Origin: Escherichia coli
Lineage (GTDB): Bacteria; Pseudomonadota; Gammaproteobacteria; Enterobacterales; Enterobacteriaceae
DNA: 64,000 nt
Reading direction: 5' to 3' (one strand)
Assembly (NCBI RefSeq): GCF_003018235.1
Contig: NZ_CP027437.1
Shown here: piece by piece, positions 55,004 to 55,147 of the stretch
How the letters are laid out: every line of letters starts with the position of its first letter
Numbering within the stretch: position 1 is the stretch's first letter
The notes under the pieces: model-generated
What the model was told of the DNA's origin: nothing
The model's input: the letters and a program-made list of their open reading frames with translations, nothing else
Databases searched by the model: none
Position numbers and translations under genes: made by a program

Positions 55004-55147
55004 ATGCAGCAAGTACTATACTGGCTTGGCTCTTTGTTTTTATTTGCTTTCCTCCTGGGAAATTGCATCAGCAATGAACACGTCAGTAATGAGCGTGTAT
55101 GCAGGAGTGATGAAAAAAAGATTCCACGCCTCATATACAATGATTGA
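55004..55147 (+). CDS. hypothetical 47-aa hydrophobic peptide (MQQVLYWLGSLFLFAFLLGNCISNE...)
   Basis: Hand translation; AAGGA RBS 7 nt upstream; starts 4 nt after the preceding gene's stop; hydrophobic N-terminal segment followed by a Cys. Below the 60-aa cut-off of the supplied track. Confidence 0.3.
   Translation: MQQVLYWLGSLFLFAFLLGNCISNEHVSNERVCRSDEKKIPRLIYND

What the first reader, a model, noticed from the sequence alone, without database searches (positions are those of the whole stretch)
55004..55147. Unannotated 47-aa hydrophobic peptide gene directly downstream of the 61-aa regulator gene
It has a good RBS and is tightly coupled to the upstream gene. The sequence MQQVLYWLGSLFLFAFLLGNC... 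looks like a membrane or lipoprotein-type peptide. Small hydrophobic peptides next to a regulator in mobile elements are often Kil-like inhibitors, type I or II toxins, or superinfection-exclusion factors. It is below the 60-aa cut-off of the supplied ORF track.
Basis: inference. Interest (0 to 1): 0.5.

Follow-up and report, generated by a model that had tools for sequence, protein, structure and literature searches.

The report
Real small membrane-protein gene in satellite
The 47-codon frame is a genuine, conserved gene for a tiny membrane-anchored protein, sitting just after the repressor gene of a phage-parasitising island; its function is untested (probably at the cell envelope), and it lies antisense inside a much longer frame that is kept free of stop codons.

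Summary
The ORF at 55004..55147 (+) is there as described: ATG, AAGGA 7 nt upstream, 3 nt after the stop of the 61-aa gene. Its length alone is not significant. It lies in the shadow frame of a 367-codon minus-strand open frame, where stops occur at the usual rate of about 3.8% per codon.

Conservation shows it is a real gene. Nineteen distinct homologues (47-54 aa) occur in E. coli and Pectobacterium, always in the same place in PICI-type satellites. Against the distant homologues (53-57% nt identity), plus-frame synonymous sites are near saturation while replacements are few and conservative (Fisher 7e-8; permutation P<=0.0005). The minus frame shows no protein-level constraint (P 0.67-0.96).

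The product is one hydrophobic helix (residues 4-22) plus a polar tail with invariant C21, C33, E37 and K38. No allele has a lipobox, so the lipoprotein idea fails.

The upstream 61-aa protein is a YlcI/YnfO ribbon-helix-helix protein, with three operator-like repeats over divergent promoters. The peptide is therefore the last gene of the island's presumed repressor operon.

Function is inferred: an envelope-acting accessory protein, most likely phage exclusion. The peptide matches no family in Pfam, NCBIfam, PHROGs or PADLOC.

The stop-free antisense frame is the strangest feature found.

The parts
55004..55147 (+). 47-aa small protein gene (ATG 55004, TGA 55145-55147). Hydrophobic helix at residues 4-22 (nt 55013-55069). 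Polar tail with invariant C21, C33, E37, K38.
54992..55003 (+). Shine-Dalgarno-like AAGGA (54992-54996) plus a 7-nt spacer that contains the upstream stop TAA (54998-55000).
   Evidence: The AAGGA(A/G) is kept in L006, L007, L018 and L020 but is degenerate in the 54-aa E. coli alleles.
54815..55000 (+). 61-aa YlcI/YnfO-family gene, predicted ribbon-helix-helix DNA-binding protein. First gene of the rightward operon.
54713..54793 (.). Three exact copies of TGTCTTACAC (54713-54722 inverted, 54739-54748, 54784-54793) over divergent promoter-like sites (+ 54757-54784; - 54753-54724). Presumed YlcI operators.
   Evidence: Repeats at the same positions but with different sequence occur in relatives carrying different YlcI alleles.
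55296..55330 (+). Intrinsic terminator-like hairpin plus T-run, ending the ylcI-peptide transcription unit.
   Evidence: -20.3 kcal/mol, z -2.5. Equivalent plus-strand terminator-like sites follow the peptide gene in L018 and L020.
55419..55455 (+). Second plus-strand terminator-like hairpin, just before the 3' end of alpA.
54970..55171 (+). About 200-bp 'cassette' present here and absent from most relatives. It holds a new 3' end for ylcI (KKTKESDKE*), the peptide gene, and the start of a remnant of another ylcI 3' end (the remnant spans 55148-55195, LARAALKQRKAKEQE*).
54415..55515 (-). 367-codon stop-free frame running from inside the 3' end of alpA to the Icd-like domain, antisense to ylcI and the peptide gene. 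Only its last ~45 codons match a protein family.
54412..54615 (-). Short Icd-like gene (67 aa), first gene of the leftward (replication) operon as annotated in RefSeq relatives.
55478..55684 (-). AlpA-type gene of the island, convergent with the ylcI-peptide unit.
   Evidence: Role of AlpA taken from PMC6092414.

Best explanation
Statement. The ORF is a genuine gene for a 47-aa single-pass inner-membrane micro-protein. It is the last gene of the rightward operon of a capsid-forming PICI-type phage satellite inserted at tRNA-Pro next to yejM.

Shown:
- It is a plus-strand protein-coding gene under purifying selection.
- It is always placed directly after a ylcI-type 3' end.
- It lies upstream of a plus-strand terminator-like hairpin.
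- It has one hydrophobic helix and a polar tail with two invariant cysteines and an invariant EK pair.
- It has no lipobox.

Inferred:
- It is transcribed from the promoter of ylcI, a ribbon-helix-helix protein whose operator-like repeats cover both divergent promoters. It would therefore be made while the island is quiescent.
- Ribosomes reach it through its own AAGGA or by re-initiation after the stop 3 nt upstream.
- It inserts N-in/C-out, with the Cys-containing tail in the periplasm.
- It works by binding a host envelope component, most likely to interfere with entry of incoming phage DNA (a superinfection-exclusion type moron).
- Expression would stop when AlpA-driven minus-strand transcription runs antisense through it.

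Approximate probabilities: real translated gene 0.85; membrane protein 0.8; exclusion-type function 0.3.
For: Coding on the plus strand:
- Window versus L018, first 25 codons, 57% nt identity: pS 0.97, pN 0.27, Fisher 7e-8. Replacements are more conservative than a codon-position-matched null (P<0.00025). The minus frame gives P 0.67.
- Window versus Pectobacterium L020: plus P 0.0005, minus P 0.96.
- The test behaves correctly on controls: ylcI scores as plus-coding and the Icd-like domain as minus-coding.

Synteny:
- The same position holds in 3 subfamilies and 19 distinct sequences.
- The stop-3 nt-ATG junction and AAGGA(A/G) are kept in Pectobacterium.
- Plus-strand terminator-like sites lie downstream.

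Membrane character:
- KD 1.4-2.1.
- AF2 helix 2-29, pLDDT 84 over residues 1-20.
- The only PDB sequence match is a SecG transmembrane helix, and it is not significant.
- Flank charges favour N-in/C-out in most alleles.

Repressor context:
-.

Accessory character:
- It is present in only 8 of 5426 complete E. coli genomes, against 734 that carry the module.
- The slot after ylcI holds different small-ORF cassettes in different orders.
Against: - There is no expression or phenotype data.
- Among close alleles alone the coding signal is weak (omega 0.3-0.55; P 0.04-0.08).
- The Shine-Dalgarno is degenerate in the 54-aa alleles.
- There is no significant similarity to any exclusion, defence or toxin family.
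- Topology in the window allele is ambiguous, with no N-terminal charge.
- That the operon is 'on' in the quiescent island is inferred from architecture only.
Confidence: 0.4

Rival explanations
1. Membrane toxin. The peptide damages the membrane or blocks division (Hok/GhoT/Kil-like). It is held in check either by YlcI acting as a ribbon-helix-helix antitoxin/autorepressor (type II-like pair) or by low coupled translation. It would act in abortive infection or in island maintenance.
For: - Small size and a single hydrophobic helix.
- The stop-3 nt-ATG arrangement behind a small RHH protein is the typical antitoxin-toxin operon layout.
Against: - ylcI occurs without the peptide in about 99% of related modules.
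- In L005/L006 two other ORFs separate ylcI from the peptide. In L018 the upstream gene's stop lies 27 nt before the peptide ATG.
- The operator-like repeats also cover the leftward replication-operon promoter, which fits an immunity repressor rather than a dedicated antitoxin.
- The conserved polar Cys...C-x3-EK tail suggests a specific partner rather than a pore.
- There is no Pfam Hok/Gef hit and no PADLOC hit.
Confidence: 0.2
2. Small membrane regulator of a host protein (MgrB-like logic). The peptide binds a host sensor kinase, transporter or secretion component and changes host physiology, with no role in phage exclusion.
For: It has the architecture I recall for MgrB: 47 aa, an N-terminal transmembrane helix, and a short tail with conserved cysteines (for this peptide; the MgrB properties are from my own knowledge, not tested here).
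Against: There is no sequence similarity to any known small regulator. Its location in a variable accessory slot of a phage satellite points rather to phage-related conflict.
Confidence: 0.15
3. Not a gene. It is a shadow ORF that stays open only because the opposite strand (the long 'Icd-like' frame) is constrained.
For: - The ORF lies wholly inside a 367-codon minus-strand open frame, with third codon positions coinciding.
- Its length is ordinary for that shadow frame.
- PGAP never calls it in the complete E. coli genomes inspected.
- Among close alleles the two frames cannot be told apart by dN/dS.
Against: - With distant homologues the plus frame shows strong protein-level constraint and the minus frame none.
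- Leu TTR/CTR synonymous first-position changes, visible when the two coding sequences printed are read side by side, are nonsynonymous on the minus strand.
- ATG, W7, F16, L17, C21, C33, E37 and K38 are invariant in 19 sequences.
- The SD and start junction are conserved.
Confidence: 0.08
4. Type I toxin controlled by a dedicated antisense RNA.
For: It is a small hydrophobic peptide. The whole gene is overlapped by convergent minus-strand transcription coming from alpA.
Against: No promoter-like site for a short antisense RNA was found on the minus strand near the gene. No Rfam family matches. There is no unusual mRNA structure at the start (z -0.13). It is co-transcribed with a repressor rather than standing alone.
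Confidence: 0.05
5. Lipoprotein of the Cor/Llp exclusion type.
For: An invariant Cys follows directly after the hydrophobic segment. The Pectobacterium-type alleles start with MKK/MRK, like a signal peptide.
Against: The residues before the Cys are LGN, MKY or LKS. None of 9 alleles fits the PS51257-type lipobox.
Confidence: 0.03

Closest known systems
Phage moron-type superinfection-exclusion membrane proteins (e.g. HK97 gp15, T4 Imm/Sp, lactococcal Sie2009); properties recalled from my own knowledge
   Same: A small protein with an N-terminal membrane anchor, carried by a mobile element, placed where it would be expressed from the resident (uninduced) element, and patchily distributed.
   Different: No sequence similarity: the best PHROG exclusion hit has E 0.22 and covers only the hydrophobic N-terminus. 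The host element is a satellite, not a phage. Exclusion has not been tested.
MgrB-type small membrane regulators; properties recalled from my own knowledge
   Same: 47 aa, one transmembrane helix, and a short tail with conserved cysteines that is probably periplasmic.
   Different: No homology. Carried on a mobile element. No known partner.
Hok/Gef and other small membrane toxins
   Same: Size, one hydrophobic helix, a Cys-containing polar tail, and translation that may depend on an upstream reading frame.
   Different: No Pfam Hok/Gef match. No antisense RNA promoter was found. It is co-transcribed with a repressor.
Repressor-linked accessory genes of temperate elements (lambda cI-rexAB logic; established knowledge)
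   Same: An accessory gene lies downstream of the presumed immunity repressor in the same transcription unit, followed by a terminator.
   Different: The repressor here is an RHH YlcI/YnfO protein of a PICI. Its repressor role is inferred, not shown.
P1 immI icd-ant arrangement (Icd family; established knowledge)
   Same: The opposite-strand frame ends in an Icd-like domain (NF033153). Its stop overlaps the start of the next ORF by 8 nt (54412..54419).
   Different: No C4-type RNA was detected. The Icd-like domain is preceded by 300-550 stop-free codons antisense to real genes. I do not recall, and did not check, a counterpart in P1.

Membership tests
Bacterial lipoprotein (Lgt/LspA substrates) | Lipobox [LVI][ASTVI][GAS]C / PROSITE PS51257 pattern at the end of the signal peptide | tested here: not met
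   The pattern is absent in all 9 alleles tested; LGNC, MKYC and LKSC are found instead.
Bacterial lipoprotein (Lgt/LspA substrates) | Positively charged n-region before the hydrophobic core | tested here: inconclusive
   MQQ/MHQ (no charge) in the E. coli alleles; MKK/MRK in the Pectobacterium-type alleles.
Hok/Gef type I toxin | Match to the Hok/Gef family profile | tested here: not met
   No Pfam-A match at all, even at E<=10.
Type I toxin-antitoxin | Dedicated small antisense RNA with its own promoter overlapping the toxin mRNA | tested here: inconclusive
   No promoter-like site on the minus strand near the gene and no Rfam match. These are consensus scans only and need RNA data.
Type II toxin-antitoxin | Antitoxin and toxin genes co-occur as an obligate pair | tested here: not met
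   The module around ylcI matches in 734 complete genomes; the peptide is in 8. Other ORFs lie between them in L005/L006.
Type II toxin-antitoxin | Upstream small DNA-binding antitoxin of RHH type that autoregulates the operon | tested here: inconclusive
Icd / Kil-type division inhibitors | Match to phage_ICD_like (NF033153) or other inhibitor families | tested here: not met
   No NCBIfam hit for the peptide. The Icd-like domain is on the opposite strand at 54412..54615.
Known superinfection-exclusion / defence protein families | Significant match to a PHROG exclusion family or a PADLOC model | tested here: not met
   PADLOC: none. PHROGs: none at E<=0.01; best exclusion hit E 0.22.
Known superinfection-exclusion / defence protein families | Reduces plating or DNA entry of a phage | not testable with these tools
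   Needs plaque and injection assays.
Single-pass membrane micro-protein (descriptive class) | One hydrophobic segment of transmembrane length, conserved as hydrophobic across homologues | tested here: met
   KD 1.4-2.1 in all alleles. Replacements within it are mostly hydrophobic-for-hydrophobic, with a few exceptions (e.g. V4K). AF2 predicts a helix.
PICI-type phage satellite (context) | int, alpA, primase/helicase replication module, no full phage gene set, tRNA-linked insertion | tested here: met
   Integrase 56190..57449, AlpA-type gene 55478..55684, RepA-type helicase 52428..53828, tRNA-Pro 57650..57726, capsid/protease gene 48170..50065. Part of the module matches EcCICFT073.

The most novel reading that the evidence does not exclude
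The peptide gene, ylcI and the other small plus-strand cassettes are real genes embedded antisense in a 300-600-codon minus-strand frame. That frame runs from the stop of alpA (or whichever gene precedes it) to the Icd-like domain. It is selected only to stay free of stop codons, not for its amino-acid sequence.

Even synonymous sites of the plus-strand genes avoid creating minus-strand stops: 0 of 86 at-risk dicodons do so.

The most novel reading is that induction of these satellites needs ribosomes to translate straight through the antisense immunity module. That translation would carry AlpA-driven transcription past the plus-strand genes to the replication operon (for example by preventing Rho termination) and silence the repressor-peptide operon at the same time. 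Any accessory gene admitted to this slot, including this peptide, would then have to be 'stop-free on the other strand'.
Probability: 0.35. Interest if true: 0.75.

Novelty: new member of a known kind. Interest (0 to 1): 0.45.

Why it matters
- It adds a conserved, previously undescribed micro-protein family (no Pfam, NCBIfam, PHROG or PADLOC model) to the regulatory core of Gram-negative PICIs. In these islands no repressor-side functions have been described, and the papers I read describe AlpA as the only characterised regulator (PMC6092414).
- It gives a concrete candidate for a satellite-encoded envelope or exclusion function.
- It shows that the slot after ylcI is a shuffling site for tiny accessory genes.
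- The analysis also exposes a dual-strand constraint: real small genes inside a stop-free antisense frame. This is directly testable and could explain how AlpA induction reaches the replication genes.
- The practical lesson is that annotation pipelines alternate between calling the long antisense frame and the short plus-strand genes, and they usually miss this one.

Tried and rejected
- **Rfam scan of 50000-58000.** No C4/CI-type or other RNA apart from the tRNA.
- **tblastn of the peptide against phage and plasmid collections.** No match.
- **GTDB species-representative genomes, peptide patterns.** No confirmed relative.
- **Metagenome DNA-pattern scan.** One hit only, an allele already known.
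- **dN/dS and codon-position counts among close alleles.** These could not separate the plus frame from the minus frame, because third positions coincide. They became decisive only with the distant homologues from the exhaustive profile search.
- **Alternative 68-aa frame (54945..55151).** Not conserved.
- **Search for att repeats of the tRNA 3' end.** Found nothing with exact k-mers.
- **Fold search of the peptide model.** Not attempted. A single helix at pLDDT 65 would give meaningless matches.
- **Literature searches on YlcI/YnfO, Icd-like and antisense overlap with AlpA.** Nothing on this gene or on the long frame.

Full report
**1. Observation**

The sequence shows an ATG at 55004 and a TGA at 55145-55147. 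It translates to MQQVLYWLGSLFLFAFLLGNCISNEHVSNERVCRSDEKKIPRLIYND. AAGGA lies at 54992-54996, 7 nt before the ATG. The TAA of the upstream 61-aa gene (54815..55000) ends 3 nt before the ATG. The description is correct.

**2. Context**

The surrounding element is a phage satellite of the PICI type.
- tRNA-Pro(GGG) lies at 57650-57726, next to yejM.
- A tyrosine integrase is at 56190..57449.
- An AlpA-type gene is at 55478..55684.
- An Icd-like gene, a DUF4222-like gene (phrog_285) and a RepA-type helicase (52428..53828) lie on the minus strand.
- Further left there is a capsid/protease gene at 48170..50065.
- Part of the module matches EcCICFT073.

The 61-aa protein is a YlcI/YnfO family member (NF041551, 65 bits against a cut-off of 30).
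- Pfam gives nothing useful for it.
- An AF2 model (pLDDT 83) has an extended N-terminus followed by two helices.

Three exact copies of TGTCTTACAC, the only exact copies in the 64 kb, sit over a pair of divergent promoter-like sites at 54713-54793. In relatives, repeats occupy the same positions relative to the ylcI ATG (about -102, -77 and -31) but have different sequences that go with different YlcI alleles. I infer that YlcI is the allele-specific repressor of both promoters.

Two plus-strand terminator-like hairpins follow the peptide ORF, at 55296-55321 and 55419-55446. Equivalent sites follow it in distant relatives. The ORF is thus the last reading frame of a ylcI transcription unit.

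**3. Complication: a long open frame on the other strand**

One minus-strand frame is open from 54415 to 55515, which is 367 codons. It covers the peptide ORF, ylcI, the promoter region and both hairpins.

The same holds in every relative examined.
- The open frame is 303-605 codons long.
- In most relatives its top overlaps the 3' end of the upstream minus-strand gene. In CFT073 (L014) it ends 38 nt short of that gene, and in L001, which carries an inserted Bro-N gene, it ends well short.
- Its bottom is the Icd-like domain.

Only its last ~45 codons match a family (NF033153). About 2000 database proteins of 280-570 aa, mostly named 'host cell division inhibitor Icd-like protein', are translations of this frame.

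The plus-strand ORFs all lie in the one frame whose third codon positions coincide with it. That plus frame has the ordinary stop density: 15 stops in 367 codons. Shadow frames of real genes in this window average 3.6% stops per codon. A 47-codon open run there is therefore not remarkable, and the ORF could have been a shadow.

**4. Which strand codes?**

Close relatives carry the ORF intact. These are E. coli genomes, Logan contigs and IMG/VR contigs at 79-94% nt identity. The alleles are 47 or 54 aa and differ by an in-frame 21-nt indel. They cannot separate the two frames:
- omega is 0.30-0.56 for plus and 0.32-0.93 for minus;
- a codon-position-matched permutation test of replacement conservativeness gives P 0.04-0.08 for plus and 0.5-0.8 for minus.

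An exhaustive profile search of 1.84 billion representatives, followed by a second word-indexed search, found distant homologues.
- P0124 comes from assembly GCA_922014665.1.
- P0125 and its relatives come from Pectobacterium brasiliense, P. carotovorum and P. odoriferum, where RefSeq annotates them as hypothetical proteins.
- Both lie in the same place in PICI-like islands, directly after a ylcI gene and before a plus-strand terminator.

Results over the first 25 codons:

| Comparison | nt identity | Plus frame | Minus frame |
|---|---|---|---|
| Window vs L018 | 57% | pS 0.97, pN 0.27, Fisher 7e-8; replacements conservative, P<0.00025 | P 0.67 |
| Window vs L020 | 53% | P 0.0005 | P 0.96 |

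The same test classifies ylcI as plus-coding (P<0.0005) and the Icd-like domain as minus-coding (P<=0.0025). The ORF is therefore a plus-strand protein-coding gene, and the minus frame over it is open but not constrained as protein.

**5. The product**

Nineteen distinct sequences fall into three subfamilies. M1, W7, F16, L17, C21, C33, E37 and K38 are invariant, and G9 and L11 are nearly so.
- Residues 4-22 are hydrophobic (KD 1.4-2.1). AF2 predicts a helix at 2-29, with pLDDT 84 for residues 1-20 and a low-confidence tail.
- No allele has a lipobox.
- Flank charges favour N-in/C-out in the Pectobacterium-type and 54-aa alleles and are neutral in the window allele.
- No Pfam, NCBIfam, PHROG, PADLOC or PDB-sequence relative exists.

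**6. Distribution and mobility**

The ylcI-alpA module matches in 734 of 5426 complete E. coli genomes. The peptide segment is in 8.

Relative to L002, the window has an extra segment of about 200 bp (54970..55171). It carries a new ylcI 3' end, the peptide gene and part of a remnant of another ylcI 3' end (the remnant spans 55148-55195). L002 instead has a different 65-aa ORF cassette.

Gene order also differs between relatives:
- L007: ylcI, then the peptide, then an 'ERFAPC' ORF.
- L005/L006: ylcI, then the ERFAPC ORF, then a 42- or 43-aa ORF, then the peptide.

The junctions fall in repeated '...RRQRKK.KE*' coding ends. This is a small accessory-gene slot.

The identical module occurs in an island with a different integrase, inserted in a prophage terminase gene (L001). 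That is the helper-embedded configuration described in PMC10111431.

**7. Mechanism**

- Shown: gene status, position and membrane-type sequence.
- Inferred: co-expression with the repressor in the quiescent island, coupled or SD-driven initiation, N-in/C-out insertion, and action on an envelope partner.

I favour an exclusion-type role (about 0.3). The reasons are that the gene is a patchily distributed moron in the repressor operon of a phage-related element, and that its conserved polar Cys tail suggests a specific partner. A membrane toxin (0.2) and a host-regulator role (0.15) remain open.

AlpA is reported to activate EcCICFT073 genes, including a reporter fused to the ORF after alpA (PMC6092414). 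Induction should therefore send minus-strand transcription antisense through this gene.

**8. The antisense frame**

- Given 3.6% stops per codon in the shadow frames of real genes here, zero stops in 303-605 codons has P of 1e-5 to 2e-10 per locus.
- Inside the plus-strand genes, 86 dicodons could create a minus-strand stop depending on a synonymous third base, and none does. P is about 5e-13 from third-position composition. The alleles are related, so this overstates independence.

I could not find this described. It is reported as an unexplained feature and as the novel case.

Noticed in passing
window 54415..55515 (-); also L002, L004-L007, L012, L014-L018, L020: A minus-strand frame of 303-605 codons has no stop. 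It runs to the Icd-like domain, antisense to ylcI, the peptide gene, the promoters and the terminators. In most loci it starts inside the 3' end of alpA (or of the gene that precedes it); in L014 and L001 it stops short of that gene. It is not protein-constrained outside the Icd domain, yet synonymous sites of the plus-strand genes avoid making minus-strand stops (0 of 86). NCBI annotates it in many genomes as a 280-570-aa Icd-like protein.
   Followed up: partly
window 54713-54722, 54739-54748, 54784-54793: Three exact TGTCTTACAC copies lie over divergent promoter-like sites. Relatives have repeats at the same spacing but with different sequences, matching different YlcI alleles (for example TGTCGGACAC in Pectobacterium and GGTGTGGCCCAC in CFT073). 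These look like allele-specific operators of an RHH repressor.
   Followed up: partly
window 54697-54716: A palindrome ACCTTGA-N5-TCAAGGT lies next to the leftmost operator copy. A CACCTTG...CAAGGTG palindrome is kept in most relatives, which suggests a second protein-binding site or an RNA hairpin at the start of the leftward transcript.
   Followed up: no
window 54970..55195; L002 3396..3650; L005 2138..2677; L007 747..1202: The slot after ylcI holds shuffled mini-cassettes: a 57-68-aa 'ERFAPC.FALE.FLKEY' ORF, a 42- or 43-aa ORF, and the peptide. They are joined at repeated RRQRKK.KE*-coding ends. The window keeps a remnant of another ylcI 3' end (LARAALKQRKAKEQE*, 55148-55195).
   Followed up: partly
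window 50981..51994 (-) and 48170..50065 (-): A second tyrosine recombinase (337 aa, phrog_1) lies inside the island, between the replication genes and a capsid/protease fusion gene (phrog_133). The island is therefore of the capsid-forming type and may be composite or nested.
   Followed up: no
window 55419-55446: A strong hairpin works as a terminator only for the plus strand (a T-run follows on plus, none on minus). It lies within the first codons of the long minus-strand frame, just after the alpA stop. A GAGG plus ATG (55458) gives that frame a plausible start.
   Followed up: no
L001 (NZ_CP015229.1 1165465-1174313): The regulatory module (98% identical overall; the peptide segment is 100% identical) sits in an island with a different integrase, inserted in a prophage terminase large-subunit gene. 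This is a helper-embedded PICI, and it shows module exchange between islands with different integration sites.
   Followed up: no
window 54412..54419: The stop of the Icd-like frame overlaps the ATG of the next minus-strand ORF (54138..54419) by 8 nt. This is reminiscent of the icd-ant coupling of phage P1 (from my own knowledge).
   Followed up: no
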